Below, one piece after another: positions 35,092 through 40,282 of a stretch of DNA of 64,000 nt (position 1 is the stretch's first letter; every line of letters starts with the position of its first letter). Made by a program: the position numbers and the translations under genes. This stretch comes from Bdellovibrionota bacterium. GTDB taxonomy: Bacteria > Bdellovibrionota > UBA1018 > CAIPTA01 > JAALKR01. Under the pieces are notes generated by a model that searched no databases, was not told where the DNA came from, and worked only from the letters and a program-made list of their open reading frames with translations. The stretch covers positions 96,001 to 160,000 of the forward strand of contig CBDBMJ010000001.1 of NCBI GenBank assembly GCA_965207455.1, in the 5' to 3' direction.

Positions 35092-35679
35092 TTATTCTCT
35101 AATTTTTTTAAAGTAATAGCAGTATGGAGTGACTTTTGTGCCATCTGGATAGGATATTCCTAACAAAAGATATTCTGTATCTGACTCTAAACCTATTGTT
35201 CCCTTCCTTACATTCCATCTAGTATTAGAACTAAAATAAGCTACAAGGCTTCTGTCCTTCTGAGTTGATGGTTTTGCTTCATTTATTATAAGACTCTCCA
35301 TAAGTTCTACTAAGTTAGGATTGTCATCAATAAAATTATCAAAGTAGTTCGCATGTATGGAGCTACTCTCAACAATTGAATATTTATGTCGCGGAGTTAA
35401 GCCGTAATCAACCAAATCACCATCAATAAATCCAGCAATTAATGAGTTCCTAGCCCTGTTGGGTGTACTTTTATAAAAGCATCGTCCACTTGTCCAACCA
35501 AGAACATAACTCTCCTGTGCTGGTGCTGCATTGGCAAAAGCCTCTCCCAGTTGATCGAAGTAAGATTTATCACTCACCCTATTAGCCAGTGGACCGTTAT
35601 CCTGCACATTGGCTGCCGCTGACACAGAAAATGCACATAAAAATACCAGTACATAATGTTTTATACTATTTTTTATCAT
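35092..35679 (-). CDS. Secreted hypothetical protein, tandem paralog A
   Basis: 195 aa, signal peptide, AAGGAG RBS. Confidence 0.85.
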   Translation of the reverse strand: MIKNSIKHYVLVFLCAFSVSAAANVQDNGPLANRVSDKSYFDQLGEAFANAAPAQESYVLGWTSGRCFYKSTPNRARNSLIAGFIDGDLVDYGLTPRHKYSIVESSSIHANYFDNFIDDNPNLVELMESLIINEAKPSTQKDRSLVAYFSSNTRWNVRKGTIGLESDTEYLLLGISYPDGTKVTPYCYYFKKIRE

Positions 35680-35920
35680 TAATTTTATTCTCCTTTATTT
35701 AGTTTCGTTTATTTTACTTTAGCTTTTTACAAAAGTAAAAACTATTAAGAGGCACGTTTAGATCACGCATAAATAGATTCAGCTTTCCATAGGCTTCGTA
35801 CGCTATCTAATTTTATATTCGGTCGGTTTTATTGATTCTGATAGCTAAGGAATGAAACAAAAAATCCCCTGCCTATTACGAAGACAGAGGATTTTGTTGT
35901 TTATTACTCTTGGCTTAGTG

Positions 35921-36508
35921 TTATTCTCTAATTTTTTTAAAGTAATAGCAGTATGGAGTGACATTTGTGCCATCTGGATAGGATATTCCTAACAAAAGAT
36001 ATTCTGTATCTGACTCTAAACCTATTGTTCCCTTCCTTACATTCCATCTAGTATTAGAACTAAAATAAGCTACAAGGCTTCCGTCCTCCTGAGTTGATGG
36101 TTCTGCTTCATTTTTTATAAGATTCTCTACAGGTTCTACTCTATCAGGATCGTTATCAATAAAATTGTCAAAGTCGTTCGCACGTGCGGAGTGACTTTGA
36201 ATAATTGAATATTTATGCCGCTGAGTTAAACCGGGACCAACCAAATCGCTGTCAGTAAATCCAGCAATTAATGAGTTCCTAGCCCTGTTTGGTGTACTTT
36301 TACTAAAGCATCGTCCACTTGTCCAACCAAGAACATCACTTTCCTGTGCTGATGCTGCATTGTCAAAAGCCTCTCCTAGCCGGTCGAAGTGAGAGGTCCC
36401 ACTTGTTTCATCAGCTAACGGACCGTTATCCTGCACATTGGCTGCCGCTGACACAGAAAATGCACATAAAAATACCAGTACATAGTGTTTTATATTATTT
36501 TTTATCAT
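35921..36508 (-). CDS. Secreted hypothetical protein, tandem paralog B
   Basis: 195 aa, colinear with paralog A. Confidence 0.85.
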   Translation of the reverse strand: MIKNNIKHYVLVFLCAFSVSAAANVQDNGPLADETSGTSHFDRLGEAFDNAASAQESDVLGWTSGRCFSKSTPNRARNSLIAGFTDSDLVGPGLTQRHKYSIIQSHSARANDFDNFIDNDPDRVEPVENLIKNEAEPSTQEDGSLVAYFSSNTRWNVRKGTIGLESDTEYLLLGISYPDGTNVTPYCYYFKKIRE

Positions 36509-36646
36509 TATTTTATTCTCCTTTATTTAGTTTTAAGTTTCGTTCATTTTGTTTAGCTTTTACAAAAGCAAAAGCTATTAAGAGGCTACTAAGATACAAA
36601 ACATGCTGTCAATAGTTTTTTAATAATATTTTTAACAATTTTATTG

Positions 36647-37546
36647 ACGCAATTTAAAAAATCATCCAAAGATTTTTTCCCCCGCACTAGCTCCTCGCTC
36701 GCTCGGAACCAGTGCGGGTCATTGCTTCGCGTTCAAATCCCCTCTGATTTTTGTACCAAGGGGATCGAGGCTTGGGTTTAATGGATGGTTTTTAAATGTA
36801 AAGTTTGGTAGCTGGAGGGATTCAACCTACTACACAAAATTCCCTCCAAGGAATTTTCTTGCGTAGGCTCCCCTACGCAATTTAAAAAATCATCAAAGAT
36901 TTTTTTCCCCTCACTAGCTCCGCTCGCTCGGAACCAGTGCGGGTCATTGCTTCGCGTTCAAATCCCCTCTGATTTTTGTACCAAGGGGATCGAGGCTTGG
37001 GTTTAATGGATGGTTTTTAAATGTAAAGTTTGGTAGCTGGAGGGATTCAACCTACTACACAAAATTCCCTCCAAGGAATTTTCTTGCGTAGGCTCCCCTA
37101 CGCAATTTAAAAAATCATCAAAGATTTTTTTCCCCGCACTAGCTCCTCGCTCGCTCGGAGCCAGCGCGGGTCATTGCTTCGCTCCTCGCTCGCTCGGAAC
37201 CATCGCACTAGCTCCTCGCTCGCTCGGAGCCAGCGCGGGTCATTGCTTCGCGTTCAAATCCTCTGGATGGTGTTTTTTGAATATATTTGATTCTTTTAGA
37301 GATGATGTTTTATATTGGTAGCTGGAGGGATTCAACCTACTACACAAAATTCCCTCCAAGGAATTTTCTTGCGTAGGCTCCCCTACGCAATTTAAAAAAT
37401 CATCAAAGATTTTTTTGTTCACTATCGGAGATTTTTTTCCCCTCCAGAACCAGTGCGGGTCATTGCTTCGCGTTCAAATCCCCTCTGATTTTTGTACCAA
37501 GGGGATCGAGGCTTGGGTTTAATGGATGGTTTTTAAATGTAAAGTT
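36647..37546 (-). repeat. tRNA-linked tandem array of structured repeats (~4 units) carrying tRNA-Met 3'-end copies
   Basis: TGGTAGCTGGAG-GGATTCAACCT at 36806, 37031, 37316 versus tRNA end at 37547; several hairpins per unit. Confidence 0.9.
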
Positions 37547-37623
37547 TGGTAGCTGGAGAGGGATTTGAACCTTCGACCTTCGCTTTATGAATGCGATGCT
37601 CTAACCAACTGAGCTACCCAGCC
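37547..37623 (-). tRNA. tRNA-Met(CAT), elongator-type
   Basis: GGCTGGGTAGCTCAGTTGGTTAGAGCATCGCATTCATAAAGCGAAGGTCGAAGGTTCAAATCCCTCTCCAGCTACCA. Confidence 0.93.
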
Positions 37624-37702
37624 ACTCTGTGTACACACTACCGAATACCATAAAATCAGTATAAAGGTTTTTCGTCAAGCGCGATGTTATTCTAAAGAAC
37701 CC

Positions 37703-39937
37703 CTAGAAGCGCCTAGAACCGCCACCACCTCTAGAACCACCCCTATCTCCTCTATCTCCACGATTGTCGCGACTGTCCCGAGATGGTCGCCTGCTGTGCT
37801 CTCCCTCTGGTGGCGGCTTGTAGCCCGGAGGGGGATCTAAAAGCGCTTTTCTGGATAAACGCACTTTTCCCATGCGGTCAATATCCAATACCTTTACCTC
37901 CACTTGCTCTCCTTCCGATAAAACGTCCGTTACCTTGTTCACTCGGTCGTAAGCAATCTCTGAAATATGGAGAAGTCCCTCAGTAGAACCCGTTACAGAA
38001 ACAAAAGCACCAAAATCCACAATCTTTACCACTTTGCCGTTGTAAACTTTGCCCACTTCCACTTCTTCCACTAAACCCTCAATCATCTTCTTAGCCTTGT
38101 TGGCGTTTTCTGAATTGAGAGCAACAATGTTGATGGAACCGTCGTCACTTATGTCCACCTTCACGTCACACTCCTCAATAATTCCTCGAATTACCTTTCC
38201 ACCAGGACCAATAACAGTAGCAATCTTGTCTTGTGCAACTTTCATGGCGTATACCCGTGGAGCAAATTTTGAAATGTCCTCTTTCGGAGCAGAAATAGTT
38301 TTTGCCATCTCTCCTAAAATATGGAGCCTGCCCTCTTTGGCTTGGTGGAGCGCTTTTTCTAAAACAGATTTCGTTACACCATCTATCTTAATGTCCATTT
38401 GTATAGCAGTTATACCATCGGTAGTACCCGCAATTTTAAAGTCCATGTCCCCAAGATGATCCTCATCACCAAGAATGTCACTAAGGATAACAATGTCATC
38501 ACCCTCTTTAATAAGACCCATGGCAATTCCTGCTAAAGGCTTTTTGAGAGGAACACCCGCACTCATCAAAGCCATGGAACCACTACAAACGGAAGCCATA
38601 GACGACGAACCGTTGGACTCCAAAGTCTCACACACCACTCGAATGGTATAGGGAAAGTCTTCCTTACTTGGCATCATTGCACTCAATGCTCGCTCTGCTA
38701 ACATTCCGTGACCAATCTCACGTCGTCCAGGGGGACGAAGCGGACGAGCCTCTCCCACAGAAAAAGGAGGGAAATTATAATGCAACATAAATCGCTTGGC
38801 ACTCGAAGTGGCCCTGCTCTTTAACATTCCATCTTCAATCTGCTGATCCTCTTTTGTACCCAACGTAATGGCAGCCAATACCTGAGTTTCTCCACGAGTA
38901 AATAAACTGGAACCGTGACAACGGGGAAGAACGTTTATCTCAGATTCAATGGGACGAACTTGGGTGGAGGTACGTGCGTCCAGTCGCTTTTGATCCTTCA
39001 CAATCATGGCACGCATATAATTGTACTTGTTTGCTGCCATGGACTTCTCCAACAAAGGCTTTCTCTGAACATCGTCGCTGGCGAATTTTTCCATTACTTC
39101 TTTTTTCACTTCATCCAAAGCACTGTAGCGAGCTAACTTGTCCTTAATGGAAAAAGCAGCCTGTAATTGACTGGAACAAAAATCCCCTACCTCAGCAGTC
39201 AAAGCATCATCTTTTGCTTCCACTGAAAATTTTCGAGTGGGCTTGCCCACCTTGGCTTGAAAATCTTTTTGCAACTGAATCACCGGCTGCATGGACGTAT
39301 GGGCAAACATAATCGCCTCTAACATCTCATCTTCAGACAACTCTTGAGCCGAACCCTCTACCATCACCACCGCATCTTCAGTGCCTGCTACAATAATCTC
39401 TAAATCACTTTTTTCTATTTCCTCAGAGGATGGATTAATCTTAAGCTCACCGTCCACACGTCCCACACGCACTTCCGCAATGGGAGTGGTAAAAGGAATG
39501 TCGGAAATGCACAGAGCGCAGGAAGCGCCAATGGCTGCTACCACGTCGGGCATGTTTTGTGCCTCCACGGAAAGTATGGTGGCTTGCACTTGAACGTCGC
39601 ACATATAGCCTTCAGGGAAGAGGGGACGAATGGGACGATCGATGAGACGAGCACTAAGGGCTGCGTCCGAACTGGGGCGCGCCTCCCGTTTGAAAAAACC
39701 ACCCGGGAATCTTCCCGCTGCATAGTATTTCTCCACATAATCTACCGTTAAAGGGAAGAAACCTTGACCCTCTCTGGCCTCTTTGGCCGCAGTAGCTGTC
39801 ACTAGAACTAAGGTGTCTCCGTAGGAAACTAGCACGGAACCGTCGGCTTGTTTGGCCATTCGACCTGTTTCTATCGTTAGGGTCCTGCCCCCGAGCTCAC
39901 ACTCCATTGTTACTTTATTATTCATTTTATCTGTCAT
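37703..39937 (-). CDS. pnp: Polyribonucleotide nucleotidyltransferase
   Basis: FFPLTVDY, RREIGHG, SNGSSSMASVC, GDMDFK, KH and S1 domains. Confidence 0.99.
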   Translation of the reverse strand: MTDKMNNKVTMECELGGRTLTIETGRMAKQADGSVLVSYGDTLVLVTATAAKEAREGQGFFPLTVDYVEKYYAAGRFPGGFFKREARPSSDAALSARLIDRPIRPLFPEGYMCDVQVQATILSVEAQNMPDVVAAIGASCALCISDIPFTTPIAEVRVGRVDGELKINPSSEEIEKSDLEIIVAGTEDAVVMVEGSAQELSEDEMLEAIMFAHTSMQPVIQLQKDFQAKVGKPTRKFSVEAKDDALTAEVGDFCSSQLQAAFSIKDKLARYSALDEVKKEVMEKFASDDVQRKPLLEKSMAANKYNYMRAMIVKDQKRLDARTSTQVRPIESEINVLPRCHGSSLFTRGETQVLAAITLGTKEDQQIEDGMLKSRATSSAKRFMLHYNFPPFSVGEARPLRPPGRREIGHGMLAERALSAMMPSKEDFPYTIRVVCETLESNGSSSMASVCSGSMALMSAGVPLKKPLAGIAMGLIKEGDDIVILSDILGDEDHLGDMDFKIAGTTDGITAIQMDIKIDGVTKSVLEKALHQAKEGRLHILGEMAKTISAPKEDISKFAPRVYAMKVAQDKIATVIGPGGKVIRGIIEECDVKVDISDDGSINIVALNSENANKAKKMIEGLVEEVEVGKVYNGKVVKIVDFGAFVSVTGSTEGLLHISEIAYDRVNKVTDVLSEGEQVEVKVLDIDRMGKVRLSRKALLDPPPGYKPPPEGEHSRRPSRDSRDNRGDRGDRGGSRGGGGSRRF

Positions 39938-40021: not shown

Positions 40022-40282
40022 TTATTTACGCAGCTTCAGTGTTTTAATGAGAGCGCTGTAACGAGACACTTCCCTTTTCTTCAAATACTCTAAAAGCTTG
40101 CGACGTTGAGCCACAAGATTTAATAAACCACGACGACCGTGATTGTCCTTTTTATGTACTTTGAAGTGCTCTGTTAAGTGGACTATGCGATTTGTTATAA
40201 TAGCCACTTGAACTTCTGGCGATCCAGTGTCACCGGAAGCACGGGCAAATTTCTTAATCACTGTTTCTTTCTTTTCTAACAT
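40022..40282 (-). CDS. rpsO: 30S ribosomal protein S15
   Basis: [21 protein letters not shown]; rpsO-pnp synteny. Confidence 0.99.

What the first reader, a model, noticed from the sequence alone, without database searches (positions are those of the whole stretch)
36647..37623. Array of multi-hairpin repeats downstream of tRNA-Met, each ending in a tRNA-like CCA end: candidate processed ncRNA system
Seen: on the tRNA strand, three complete units end ...GTTGAATCCCTCCAGCTACCA (36806, 37031, 37316) and a fourth is truncated. Each starts with GGATTTGAAC, complementary to its own T-arm-like end. Each encloses four hairpins: AAAATTCC/GGAATTTT, TTGCGTAGG/CCTACGCAA, AAAAAATC/GATTTTTT, and CCCGCACT/AGTGCGGG with a GCTCGCTC loop; this last arm is amplified in one unit and replaced in another. 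Linkers are identical three times and different once (37261-37315), giving a repeat-spacer layout. Known: E. coli tyrT is followed by 178-bp repeats containing the tRNA 3' end that yield rtT RNA. Inference: co-transcription and tRNA-type processing could release ~170-230 nt structured CCA-ended RNAs, or the units are a tRNA-targeting non-autonomous element that duplicates its target.
Basis: partly seen in the sequence, partly recalled or inferred. Interest (0 to 1): 0.78.

Follow-up and report, generated by a model that had tools for sequence, protein, structure and literature searches.

The report
tRNA-linked structured repeat array
The repeats behind this methionine tRNA gene belong to a family of small folded elements that, in Bdellovibrio-like bacteria, sit behind tRNA genes and carry copies of that tRNA's own end, the same design as the still unexplained "tRNA-linked repeats" of E. 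coli.

Summary
Downstream of tRNA-Met(CAT) (37547-37623, minus strand) lie three complete units and one truncated unit (36647-37546). The array is one of 11 loci of a dispersed family in this 2.38-Mb genome, and 8 of the 11 lie directly behind a tRNA gene. Each unit has a linker, an inverted copy of the cognate tRNA gene's 3' end, a structured core of about 130 nt, and a direct copy of that 3' end running from the T loop to CCA. The two copies pair as a closing helix.

A covariance model finds the family in 37 of 127 genomes of the class and in 7 genomes elsewhere in the phylum, again tailored to the local tRNA. The fold has strong covariation and is read on the tRNA strand (189 G-U against 10 A-C cells). 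Cores group by genome, not by tRNA, so the element spreads between tRNA genes.

The tails copy the gene, not the mature tRNA: trailer sequence is included, and CCA is missing where the gene does not encode it.

The design matches the E. coli tRNA-linked repeats (TLRs), but there is no similarity to Rfam RtT.

Two hairpins carry conserved CAGGA(U/A/G)G apices, so a CsrA-binding read-through RNA is my leading guess at function; it is untested. An earlier report of this scan (e1-7011798) reached the same TLR reading on another array of this genome.

The parts
37547..37623 (-). tRNA-Met(CAT) gene with encoded CCA. It lies downstream of rpsO (40022-40282) and pnp (37703-39937) on the same strand.
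   Evidence: ARAGORN; Rfam tRNA 62.4 bits; Pfam on the neighbouring ORFs
37316..37546 (-). Unit 1 (231 nt): linker A, inverted copy of the tRNA end, a core in which hairpin H1 is replaced by a partial copy of H2, and the tail CCCTCCAGCTACCA
   Evidence: Sequence; covariance-model hit at 120.1 bits (L001:2010-2184); coordinates
37031..37315 (-). Unit 2 (285 nt): the different linker B (37264-37315), a short inverted arm (37252-37263), hairpin H1 amplified (37134-37251), then the normal core and tail
   Evidence: (period 39, 3.1 copies); covariance-model hit at 149.8 bits
36806..37030 (-). Unit 3 (225 nt), the canonical unit
   Evidence: covariance-model hit at 168.6 bits; fold z = -5.6
36647..36805 (-). 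Unit 4, truncated after ...AAATTGCGT, so it lacks H4, the closing 3' arm and the tail
   Evidence: query 1-156, 97% identity; covariance-model hit at 86.1 bits
36984..37030 (-). Linker A of unit 3. Identical copies lie at 37500-37546 and 36759-36805.
36956..36983 (-). Inverted arm (IR-L) TGGTACAAAAATCAGAGGGGATTTGAAC. It is the reverse complement of the tRNA-Met 3' end with a diverged middle, and forms the 5' strand of closing helix P1. Copies lie at 37472-37499 and 36731-36758.
   Evidence: family-wide match to the cognate tRNA
36909..36943 (-). Hairpin H1 (CCCGCACTGGTTCC ... GGAGCTAGTGAGG)
   Evidence: helix 4 of the family, 93.6% of cells paired and 13 of 13 pairs with compensatory change
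36884..36906 (-). Hairpin H2 (AAAAAAATC ... GATTTTTT). In most relatives its apex reads CAGGA(U/A/G)G; in this array it reads UUUGAUG.
   Evidence: helix 5, 98.7% of cells paired; loop census
36859..36880 (-). Conserved junction GCGTAGGGGAGCC followed by TACGCA.
   Evidence: Invariant columns; helix 7, 98.2% of cells paired
36836..36857 (-). Hairpin H4 (AAAATTCC UUGGAGG GAATTTT) with GGA at the apex
   Evidence: helix 8; loop census
36806..36835 (-). GTGTAGTAGG, then the T-loop-like TTGAATCC, then the tail CCCTCCAGCTACCA. This is the 3' strand of P1 and a direct near-copy of the tRNA-Met 3' end, 2 nt shorter.

Best explanation
The array is one locus of an apparently undescribed family of tRNA-linked repeats, built like the E. 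coli TLRs, that occurs across Bdellovibrionota.

Each unit is a non-coding module of about 165 nt plus a linker. Its fold is read on the tRNA strand: a closing helix P1, a stem P2 that carries hairpins H1 and H2, a conserved purine-rich junction, and a stem P3 that carries hairpin H4. [quoted passage not shown]

Shown:
- the linkage to tRNA genes
- the tailoring of both arms to the cognate tRNA
- the conserved fold and its strand
- the grouping of cores by genome rather than by tRNA
- the arms being copied from the gene and its trailer, not from mature tRNA

Inferred:
1. The element spreads from one tRNA gene to another inside a lineage. Its arms are rebuilt from the new gene at the DNA level. 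I consider two routes: a long target duplication running from the T loop into the trailer, or gene conversion from the tRNA followed by palindrome correction. The TTCGAA palindrome of the T loop sits at the junction in either case.
2. Arrays such as this one grow and shrink by unequal recombination between the direct copies of the tRNA end.
3. The units are transcribed by read-through from the tRNA promoter, and P1 with the tRNA-like end gives processing sites.
4. The released RNA binds CsrA through its GGA-apex hairpins, as reported for the E. coli TLR-derived RNAs RrA, RrB and RrF. I put step 4 at about one in three.
For: Linkage to tRNA genes in this genome:
- A unit used as a blastn query gives 22 matches at 11 loci. 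Eight of the 11 loci lie within about 60 nt behind a same-strand tRNA: Met, Arg-CCT, Ser-GGA, Pro-GGG, Glu, Ser-TGA, Trp and Ser-GCT.
- The other 3 loci carry tails of tRNA-Gln and tRNA-Pro(TGG), whose genes lie 1.2 to 10.7 kb upstream. An integrase-bearing insert sits between tRNA-Gln and its array.

Tailoring to the cognate tRNA (62 units from 49 loci examined):
- 44 of the 62 have a same-strand tRNA within 1.3 kb upstream.
- The longest exact match of the tail to that tRNA's 3' end has a median of 17.5 nt and is at least 16 nt in 31 of 44. Against non-cognate tRNA ends the mean is 5.7 nt.
- The inverted arm matches with a median of 12 nt, at least 10 nt in 39 of 44, against 6.4 nt for non-cognate ends. 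It reaches 23-24 nt in three loci.

Distribution of covariance model R1:
- 5 of 11 genomes of the order (the single G003 hit is weak, E 0.0076, and lies in coding-like sequence, so 4 are firm)
- 37 of 127 genomes of the class, in 25 of 76 genera
- 12 of 151 genomes of a phylum sample, 7 of them outside the class

Fold:
- 91.8% of cells are paired, against 64.2% in shuffles and 38-47% with slid partners. 48 of 50 pairs show compensatory change.
- There are 189 G-U/U-G cells against 10 A-C/C-A cells, so the fold is read on the tRNA strand.

Spread between tRNA genes:
- In a tree of cores built without P1 and the tail, all G000 units from 8 tRNA loci form one clade, Leu-TAG units are scattered, and a Leu-TAG unit and an Asp unit of one genus are sisters.

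Copy of the gene, not of mature tRNA:
- The direct repeats run 18-42 nt into the trailer at Arg-CCT, Ser-GCT, Ser-TGA and in G047.
- The inverted arm continues into an inverted trailer copy.
- In G153 and G138 the tRNA genes lack CCA, and so do the unit tails.

Same design as the E. coli TLRs: PMC8144298 and the tyrV locus read.

Read-through: no terminator-like site lies between tRNA-Met and the array.

GGA apices:
- H2 carries GGA in 40 of 60 rows (6.9 expected) and H4 in 38 of 60 rows (5.1 expected).
- Each is present in 23 of 31 genomes. The commonest H2 apices are CAGGATG, CAGGAAG and CAGGAGG.
- CsrA is encoded in this genome.
Against: - No expression data exist: no RNA run was listed.
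- In several relatives the linker is an A-run, a GC hairpin and a T-run, which looks like an intrinsic terminator in front of each core. Transcription would then depend on read-through.
- In this window's own units the H2 apex has no GGA.
- CsrA is near-universal in the class: 119 of 127 genomes, and 34 of the 37 that carry units. Its presence therefore says nothing. One unit-bearing genome rated 98% complete (7% contamination) gave no CsrA hit.
- No enzyme that could move the element was found.
- No filled-versus-empty pair of near-identical genomes was available, so mobility rests on the tree and on the patchy distribution.
- Alignment A2 was fitted to the model's structure and its rows are related, which inflates the pairing figures.
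- 13 of 44 tails are degenerate (match under 16 nt), and 18 of 62 units have no tRNA within the stretch held.
Confidence: 0.65

Rival explanations
1. The units are selfish DNA only. They would be a small non-autonomous element whose hairpins act as single-stranded or cruciform DNA sites for a recombinase supplied in trans, for example one of the genome's tyrosine recombinases. It would insert at the T-loop palindrome of tRNA genes and have no RNA function.
For: - Distribution is patchy and cores group by genome.
- Both arms are built from the target gene plus its trailer.
- In relatives, terminator-like linkers sit in front of the cores.
- The genome holds 9 tyrosine recombinases, and tRNA genes are insertion hot spots in it.
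- G-T pairs are also tolerated in folded DNA, so the strand bias does not prove an RNA.
Against: - No recombinase or transposase gene recurs next to the units: 0 of 45 downstream ORFs from 41 loci.
- GGA apices and a purine-rich junction are conserved across the phylum. DNA recombination sites are not known to need them.
- Two diverged units in one array keep the fold through compensatory changes.
Confidence: 0.2
2. The units are leftovers of repeated integrase-mediated insertions of genomic islands into the 3' end of tRNA genes. The direct repeats would be att sites and the core a surviving arm of attP.
For: - Island integration duplicates the tRNA 3' end. This genome has such an island at tRNA-Gln, with a 14-nt repeat and an adjacent integrase.
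- HipA, AbiEii and Fic genes lie downstream of 4 of 41 loci.
Against: - One homologous core carries the ends of more than 15 different tRNA species. Each att variant would have to pre-exist in the element.
- The inverted copy of the tRNA end and the conserved fold are not features of att remnants.
- The island at tRNA-Gln uses a different junction and displaced an array that was already there.
- No integrase lies next to the units.
Confidence: 0.06
3. The units are made through RNA: a SINE-like or tRNA-primed retro-element whose ends are copied from mature tRNA.
For: - The tRNA-derived segment is 16-22 nt long, about the length of a primer-binding site.
- The inverted arm begins with TGG in several loci.
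- One unit has an extra 16-nt copy of the tRNA end that stops exactly at CCA.
Against: - No reverse transcriptase domain was found in the genome, which is 94.7% complete.
- The repeats include trailer sequence beyond CCA.
- The tails lack CCA where the gene lacks it.
Confidence: 0.03
4. The array is an assembly artefact, or a CRISPR-like repeat-spacer array.
For: No read or contig spanning the whole array was available.
Against: - Units differ from each other (linker B, amplified or replaced H1), which a collapse or expansion artefact would not produce.
- Similar arrays stand at 5 other tRNA loci of this genome and in other genomes.
- The linkers are repeated, not unique.
- Repeat contigs have higher depth than the flank (weak).
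Confidence: 0.02

Closest known systems
E. coli tRNA-linked repeats (TLRs; Egan and Landy 1978 and Rudd 1999, as cited in PMC8144298), including the 178-bp tyrT/tyrV repeats and RtT/RttR RNA (Rfam RF00391)
   Same: - They sit directly behind stable-RNA genes, with one to several head-to-tail copies at many loci.
- The last 18-19 nt are identical to the 3' end of the upstream gene, starting in the T loop.
- An upstream segment is complementary to that end (GGGGAAGGAT in the tyrV units).
- The interior has GC-rich hairpins.
- The function is unknown.
   Different: - There is no detectable sequence or model similarity. RF00391 hits 4 E. coli units at 133-138 bits and nothing in this window at E up to 1. 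Model R1 finds nothing in the E. coli locus (best E 0.76).
- The core fold is different.
- The phylum is different.
- Here the inverted arm can be a full 24-nt copy and can continue into the trailer.
RrA/RrB/RrF small RNAs of E. coli rrn operons (TLR members; PMC8144298, abstract and passages read)
   Same: - They lie between the stable-RNA gene's first terminator and a second one and are made by read-through.
- They end in a copy of the upstream RNA's 3' end.
- They carry GGA motifs and are reported to bind CsrA and Hfq in vitro.
   Different: - They follow 5S rRNA, not tRNA.
- Binding is shown there and only guessed here.
- The sequences are unrelated.
CsrB/RsmY/RsmZ-type CsrA-sequestering RNAs (features recalled, not tested here)
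   Same: They have several hairpins with GGA at the apex. The H2 apex CAGGA(U/A/G)G equals the CsrB repeat motif as I recall it.
   Different: - Each unit has only 2-3 GGA sites.
- No Rfam Csr/Rsm family matched.
- Such RNAs are known from Gammaproteobacteria and are not tRNA-linked.
Duplication of tRNA 3' ends by integrating islands and phages (tyrosine integrases)
   Same: They leave a direct repeat of the tRNA 3' end that starts in or near the T loop, and tRNA genes are their hot spots.
   Different: - The units carry no integrase.
- One core goes with many different tRNA ends.
- The units add an inverted copy and a conserved fold.
MITEs and REPINs (small non-autonomous repeats with hairpin potential)
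   Same: They are small, non-coding and multi-copy, form stem-loops and are patchy between genomes.
   Different: - The terminal inverted repeats of the units are not element-specific; they are copied from the neighbouring tRNA gene.
- The units are strictly tRNA-linked.
- No matching transposase was found.

Membership tests
tRNA-linked repeat (TLR) design as defined in PMC8144298 | Located in a tRNA or rRNA operon immediately downstream of the stable-RNA gene | tested here: met
   8 of 11 loci in this genome. 44 of 62 units across genomes have a same-strand tRNA within 1.3 kb upstream.
tRNA-linked repeat (TLR) design as defined in PMC8144298 | About 18-19 bp at the 3' end identical to the 3' end of the upstream gene | tested here: met
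   The median exact match is 17.5 nt and is at least 16 nt in 31 of 44 units. In this window it is 12 nt exact because the tail lacks 2 nt.
tRNA-linked repeat (TLR) design as defined in PMC8144298 | Many loci, each with one to five copies | tested here: met
   11 loci with 1 to 4 units each: 16 full units, 5 truncated at the 3' side and 2 partial 3' pieces.
Rfam RtT RNA (RF00391) | Match to the family's covariance model at or above the gathering score | tested here: not met
   No RtT match at E up to 1 in 35500-38500 or at E up to 0.1 in 15 loci. As a positive control, 4 E. coli units score 133-138 bits.
CsrA-sequestering small RNA (Csr/Rsm type) | Several GGA motifs presented in hairpin loops | tested here: met
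   H2 has GGA in 40 of 60 rows (6.9 expected) and H4 in 38 of 60 rows (5.1 expected). Each is present in 23 of 31 genomes. The window's own units have GGA in H4 and the junction but not in H2.
CsrA-sequestering small RNA (Csr/Rsm type) | CsrA present and bound by the RNA | not testable with these tools
   CsrA is encoded, but it is near-universal in the class. Binding needs a bench test.
Integrase att remnant / genomic island | Tyrosine integrase gene adjacent, with island genes between the direct repeats | tested here: not met
   Only the roughly 165-nt module and its linker lie between the repeats. 0 of 45 downstream ORFs is a recombinase. The integrases of this genome are not next to units, except for the separate island at tRNA-Gln.
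MITE / IS derivative | Element-specific terminal inverted repeats and a cognate transposase family in the genome | tested here: not met
   The arms differ with the tRNA. No TnpB-type, IS110-type or Y1 transposase domain was found in the genome, which is 94.7% complete.
Retro-element copied from or primed by mature tRNA | Reverse transcriptase available; copies end at the mature RNA end | tested here: not met
   No RVT_1 domain was found. Copies include trailer sequence and lack CCA where it is not encoded.
CRISPR-like array | Constant repeats separated by unique spacers | tested here: not met
   Three of four linkers are identical, and linkers are shared between loci. Cas genes were not searched for.

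The most novel reading that the evidence does not exclude
TLR-type units would be a protein-less mobile element class. A structured module moves between tRNA genes and has its closing helix rewritten from each new target by host replication or repair, through template switching at the TTCGAA palindrome of the T loop. That would leave the layout seen here: tRNA end, linker, inverted end, core, direct end. The same process would explain the E. coli TLRs, which have been unexplained since 1978, and the look-alike families that this scan's unchecked notes report from other phyla.
Probability: 0.2. Interest if true: 0.85.

Novelty: new variant of a known kind. Interest (0 to 1): 0.6.

Why it matters
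tRNA-linked repeats have been known in E. coli since 1978, but their origin is unknown and most have no known function. This family has the same design with an unrelated core and is spread over a whole phylum, so the design is not an enterobacterial oddity.

The family also supplies what the E. coli repeats lack. It has enough diverged copies to define a fold by covariation. It shows that both arms are copied from the tRNA gene. And it shows that the cores spread between tRNA genes.

That turns two old questions into testable ones: how the ends are re-tailored, and whether these trailer modules are regulatory RNAs. One such role would be titrating CsrA in step with tRNA transcription, which would extend Csr-type RNA control beyond Gammaproteobacteria.

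Tried and rejected
- **RNA evidence.** No RNA holder was listed for 36500-38200. The one DNA run is kept as short contigs, and none spans the array.
- **Rfam.** Nothing but tRNA matched in the window region or in 15 family loci.
- **Homology with E. coli TLRs.** Model R1 against the tyrV locus gave nothing (best E 0.76).
- **Similarity search by blastn.** A core found a match in only 1 of 40 relatives, and a weak one. The pattern scan of genome contigs found only 2 records. The covariance model was needed.
- **Mobilising enzymes in this genome.** RVT_1, the Cas12f/TnpB zinc ribbon, the IS110 DEDD domain and the Y1 transposase all gave 0 hits. The genome is 94.7% complete, so this is not proof of absence.
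- **Flanking genes.** 45 downstream ORFs from 41 loci showed no recurrent family.
- **Empty-site comparisons.**
  - G001, of the same family, has no synteny at pnp/tRNA-Met.
  - In genus g9, two genomes lack the unit behind tRNA-Leu(CAG). Their flanks are too diverged to give exact junctions.
- **CsrA co-occurrence.** It is uninformative because CsrA is in 119 of 127 genomes.
- **Promoter and terminator scan of the array.** Nothing beyond chance.
- **Literature.**
  - Searches 'rtT + tyrT + repeat', 'tRNA-linked repeat', 'RtT RNA' and 'downstream of tRNA genes + repeat + bacteria' found no description of such repeats outside Enterobacteria.
  - PMC5217627 (passages) and bioRxiv 10.1101/2024.07.17.603846 (passages) were not relevant to mechanism.
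  - One search failed on a malformed term.
- **Ideas considered and dropped.**
  - Integron attC-like sites: the core-site motif fits only some units.
  - TnpB guide-RNA-like scaffold plus guide: no TnpB is present, and the would-be guide is paired in P1.
  - IS110 bridge RNA: no such transposase is present, and the two arms cover the same target segment.
Full report
**1. What is in the window**

tRNA-Met(CAT) lies at 37547-37623 on the minus strand (ARAGORN; Rfam tRNA 62.4 bits). It follows rpsO and pnp on the same strand (Pfam).

Read on that strand, the tRNA is followed head to tail by four units:
- unit 1, 231 nt, 37316-37546
- unit 2, 285 nt, 37031-37315
- unit 3, 225 nt, 36806-37030
- unit 4, truncated, 36647-36805

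Each complete unit ends ...GTAGTAGGTTGAATCCCTCCAGCTACCA. This is a near-copy of the tRNA end GGTTCAAATCCCTCTCCAGCTACCA.

Unit 3 without its linker folds at -66.7 kcal/mol, z = -5.6, and 0 of 200 shuffles fold as well. No promoter-like or terminator-like site beyond chance lies in the array or between it and the tRNA.

**2. The array is one locus of a dispersed, tRNA-linked family**

The window is C1:96001-160000 of a 2.38-Mb genome in 3 contigs, rated 94.7% complete. A unit used as a blastn query gives 22 matches at 11 loci.

ARAGORN finds 33 tRNA genes. Eight of the 11 loci begin within about 60 nt behind a same-strand tRNA: Met, Arg-CCT, Ser-GGA, Pro-GGG, Glu, Ser-TGA, Trp and Ser-GCT.

The other three loci are displaced:
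- Three units at C1:1227667-1228278 end in the 3' end of tRNA-Gln. That gene lies 10.7 kb upstream, and a tyrosine integrase gene and a 14-nt att-like repeat lie between them.
- Two partial units on C3 end in the 3' end of tRNA-Pro(TGG), whose gene lies 1.2 and 4.6 kb upstream.

Anchor searches count 16 full units, 5 units truncated on the 3' side and 2 partial 3' pieces. An earlier count said '9 of 12 loci'. The correct count is 8 of 11.

**3. Anatomy of a unit**

In every locus the unit ends with the 3' end of its own tRNA, from the T loop to CCA. For example, the Arg-CCT unit ends CCCTGGTGGGGGCACCA and the Glu unit ends CCCCTTGGGAATGCCA.

The start of the core is the reverse complement of the same tRNA's T loop and T stem. 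It follows T-loop variants: GGGCTCGAAC behind Arg, GGATTTGAAC behind Met, GGATTCGAAC elsewhere.

I then examined 62 units from 49 loci in 31 genomes, after dropping two loci that duplicate others:
- 44 have a same-strand tRNA within 1.3 kb upstream.
- The longest exact match of the tail to that tRNA's last 25 nt has a median of 17.5 nt. It is at least 16 nt in 31 of 44 and at least 12 nt in 36 of 44. Against the other tRNA ends in the set the mean is 5.7 nt.
- The inverted arm matches with a median of 12 nt, at least 10 nt in 39 of 44, against 6.4 nt for non-cognate ends.
- The remaining 18 units have no tRNA in the stretch held (contig ends or displaced arrays), but their tails look like tRNA ends.

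In three loci the inverted arm is a full 23-24-nt reverse complement that includes TGG opposite CCA. In this window it reads TGGTA...AGAGGGGATTTGAAC, which is the full-length arm with a diverged middle.

**4. The arms copy the gene, not the mature tRNA**

Three observations show this:
- The direct repeat continues past CCA into the trailer: 40 nt at Arg-CCT, 18-19 nt at two Ser loci and about 42 nt in G047.
- In several genomes the linker is a long palindrome. Its first arm starts right after CCA, and its second arm abuts the inverted tRNA-end copy. The layout is therefore S, loop, reverse complement of S, core, S, where S is the tRNA 3' end plus trailer.
- In two genomes outside the class the tRNA genes do not encode CCA, and the unit tails stop the same way, with discriminator plus trailer.

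Together with the absence of a reverse transcriptase domain, this argues against a copy made from mature tRNA. It also makes the 'CCA end' incidental.

The middle element, the reverse complement of S, can pair either with the real tRNA end upstream or with the copy downstream. This is inference from sequence, and no energy comparison was made.

**5. Distribution**

Blastn with a core finds almost nothing outside this genome: 1 weak hit in 40 relatives. That hit lies behind tRNA-Leu(TAG) and carries that tRNA's end. The record is titled 'Bacteriovoracia bacterium', which gives the taxon.

I built covariance model R1 from 13 units. It matches:
- 5 of 11 genomes of the order (one is a weak hit in coding-like sequence, which I treat as false)
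- 37 of 127 genomes of the class, in 25 of 76 genera
- 12 of 151 genomes in an even sample of the phylum, 7 of them outside the class

The larger searches used stricter filters and missed at least one diverged unit, in G016. These figures are therefore lower bounds, and they come from samples. This genome has the most copies (about 20), followed by G006 (16-18).

**6. The fold**

I counted pairs on the model-based alignment of 65 units, 60 of them distinct. The results:
- 91.8% of cells form a standard pair, against 64.2% after shuffling and 38-47% with partners slid by 1-3 columns.
- 48 of 50 pairs have changes on both sides.
- The covariation score is 0.659 against 0.186.

Two caveats apply. 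The alignment was fitted to this structure, and the rows are related, so shuffles overstate significance. The slid controls are the fairer comparison.

The closing helix P1 (inverted arm with tail) is paired in 95.8% of cells. H1, H2 and H4 are well supported.

G-U/U-G cells number 189 against 10 A-C/C-A cells. The fold is therefore read on the tRNA strand, as RNA or, less specifically, as single-stranded DNA.

Two diverged units within one array of G006 keep the hairpins through compensatory changes, which points to selection on the fold.

**7. Spread between tRNA genes**

I built a FastTree tree of the cores without P1 and the tail, from 60 distinct rows. It shows:
- All G000 units, from 8 tRNA loci, fall in one clade.
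- The three G004 units group together.
- The five Leu-TAG units are scattered.
- A Leu-TAG unit and an Asp unit from one genus are sisters.

Cores therefore group by lineage, not by tRNA type. That means either movement between tRNA genes within lineages or very strong concerted evolution. No support values or label tests were run.

Within genus g9, the unit behind tRNA-Leu(CAG) is present in G041, G047 and G016 and absent from G013 and G025. The linker palindrome differs among the three filled sites although their cores are orthologous.

**8. No enzyme in sight**

The genome gave no hit for reverse transcriptase, the TnpB-type zinc ribbon, the IS110 DEDD domain or the Y1 transposase. It has 9 tyrosine recombinases, none next to a unit apart from the island at tRNA-Gln.

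Of 45 ORFs downstream of units at 41 loci in other genomes, none is a recombinase or transposase. HipA, AbiEii and two Fic genes occur among them.

**9. Comparison with what is known**

PMC8144298 (passages read) describes the E. coli tRNA-linked repeats:
- There are 22 units at ten loci, one to five per locus.
- 18-19 bp at the unit end are identical to the end of the upstream tRNA or rRNA.
- They have no known function, except that RrA/RrB/RrF, which lie between two terminators behind 5S rRNA, are made by read-through and bind Hfq and CsrA in vitro.

I read the tyrV locus. Each 178-nt unit ends AATCCTTCCCCCACCACCA, the last 19 nt of tRNA-Tyr, and contains GGGGAAGGAT, which is complementary to that end. 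This is the same design as here.

There is no detectable homology. Rfam RtT hits the four E. coli units at 133-138 bits but nothing here, and R1 finds nothing in E. coli. I therefore file this as the TLR design with a new, unrelated core, not as a member of RtT.

My literature searches found no description outside Enterobacteria. The library lacks most subscription journals, so Rudd 1999 and Egan and Landy 1978 were seen only as citations.

**10. A guess at function**

The apices of H2 and H4 carry GGA far more often than composition predicts:
- H2: 40 of 60 rows, against 6.9 expected.
- H4: 38 of 60 rows, against 5.1 expected.
- Each is present in 23 of 31 genomes.
- Among the 45 rows outside G000, the commonest H2 apices are CAGGATG (10), CAGGAAG (5) and CAGGAGG (4).

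The junction reads GNAGGRGAGCC. As I recall it, and this is not from a call, CAGGA(U/A/C)G in hairpin loops is the repeat motif of CsrB.

Three things make a CsrA-titrating read-through RNA my leading functional guess, at about one in three:
- the RrB precedent in E. coli
- the terminator-like linkers in relatives
- the presence of csrA

Three things count against it:
- The window's own H2 apex lacks GGA.
- CsrA is near-universal in the class, so its presence is uninformative.
- Nothing has been measured.

**11. How it most likely works, and what is open**

I consider three things shown:
- The element is a structured module read on the tRNA strand.
- It is tied to tRNA genes through a closing helix built from the gene's own 3' end.
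- It is re-tailored at each tRNA and forms arrays.

The rest is inference. Arrays change by unequal recombination between the direct repeats. The amplified H1 in unit 2 and the truncated last units fit a recombination-prone locus.

For the re-tailoring I consider two routes:
- insertion at the T loop with a long, variable target duplication
- gene conversion of the tail by the tRNA gene, followed by palindrome correction of the inverted arm

I cannot tell these routes apart. The T-loop palindrome TTCGAA lies at the junction in both.

**12. Earlier notes of this scan**

After I had reached the TLR reading, I looked up earlier notes of this scan. An earlier report, e1-7011798, covers another array of this same genome behind a tRNA-Ser gene and reached the same reading. 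Further unchecked notes report look-alike families in other phyla. These are not independent evidence.

Noticed in passing
L045:1501-2010 (G000:C1:1228531-1229040) and G000:C1:1228300-1239018: A segment of about 10.7 kb with a tyrosine integrase at its end sits between tRNA-Gln(TTG) and the three-unit array that carries the tRNA-Gln end. It is bounded by the 14-nt repeat TACCACCCCAGCCA. It looks like a genomic island that integrated at the tRNA and displaced an older array.
   Followed up: partly
L007:1715-1901 (G000:C1:1458164-1458350): The third unit behind tRNA-Ser(GGA) has an extra 16-nt copy of the tRNA end (TCCTCTCTCTCCGCCA) inside the H2 loop, directly after ...CATTGAG. This resembles the normal junction ...GGTCGAG plus tail. 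It may be a small template-switch or conversion patch.
   Followed up: no
L051:1640-1795 (minus strand), L058:1375-1500, L056:760-1030 (minus strand), L064:1375-1500 and 1650-1732: A second conserved module sits in the loop of the linker palindromes in G007, G006 and G004...TTCGTTGCC..CGCGCCCCGTTCC, a hairpin, TCACGG.TGCGCTC..CGTCGCCTCGAC. It is flanked by locus-specific inverted arms that start right after the tRNA's CCA. A regular expression found it at 4 distinct loci. In this window only a possible remnant (GCCTCGAT in linker A) is left.
   Followed up: partly
L123:1460-1680 and L124:1455-1680: In two genomes outside the class, the tRNA-Leu genes do not encode CCA, and the unit tails end the same way (discriminator plus trailer, no CCA).
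   Followed up: yes
G000:C3:315450-316865 and G000:C3:369350-370503 (downstream parts of L014 and L005): About 1.2 kb following the Ser-TGA array and the Ser-GCT array is 99.6-100% identical in patches. Parts recur at C1:804688-805230 and after tRNA-Gly(TCC). Another shared sequence (..GCGCACACCATCAAGTTAGGAGA..) follows tRNA-Phe, the second tRNA-Met and the truncated Glu array. Other repeated elements therefore also use tRNA trailers in this genome.
   Followed up: partly
L118:990-1050: In G001 (same family, no units found), tRNA-Met is followed by a 22-nt tandem duplication that includes the last 7 nt of the tRNA (GCTACCAATTCTCTTGGATAC / GCTACCAATTTTTCTCGGATGC). It may be a footprint of a lost unit.
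   Followed up: no
Alignment A2, helices 3 and 8 (columns 30, 32 with 158, 160; columns 185, 186 with 260, 261): Many non-standard cells in these helices are G-A or A-G: 155 such cells in all, 20-27 rows at each of these pairs. This may mark conserved tandem G-A motifs rather than mispairing.
   Followed up: no
window 35092-35679 and 35921-36508 (minus strand): Two ORFs of exactly 195 aa each lie just downstream of the array, and neither has a Pfam match. I did not compare them with each other.
   Followed up: no
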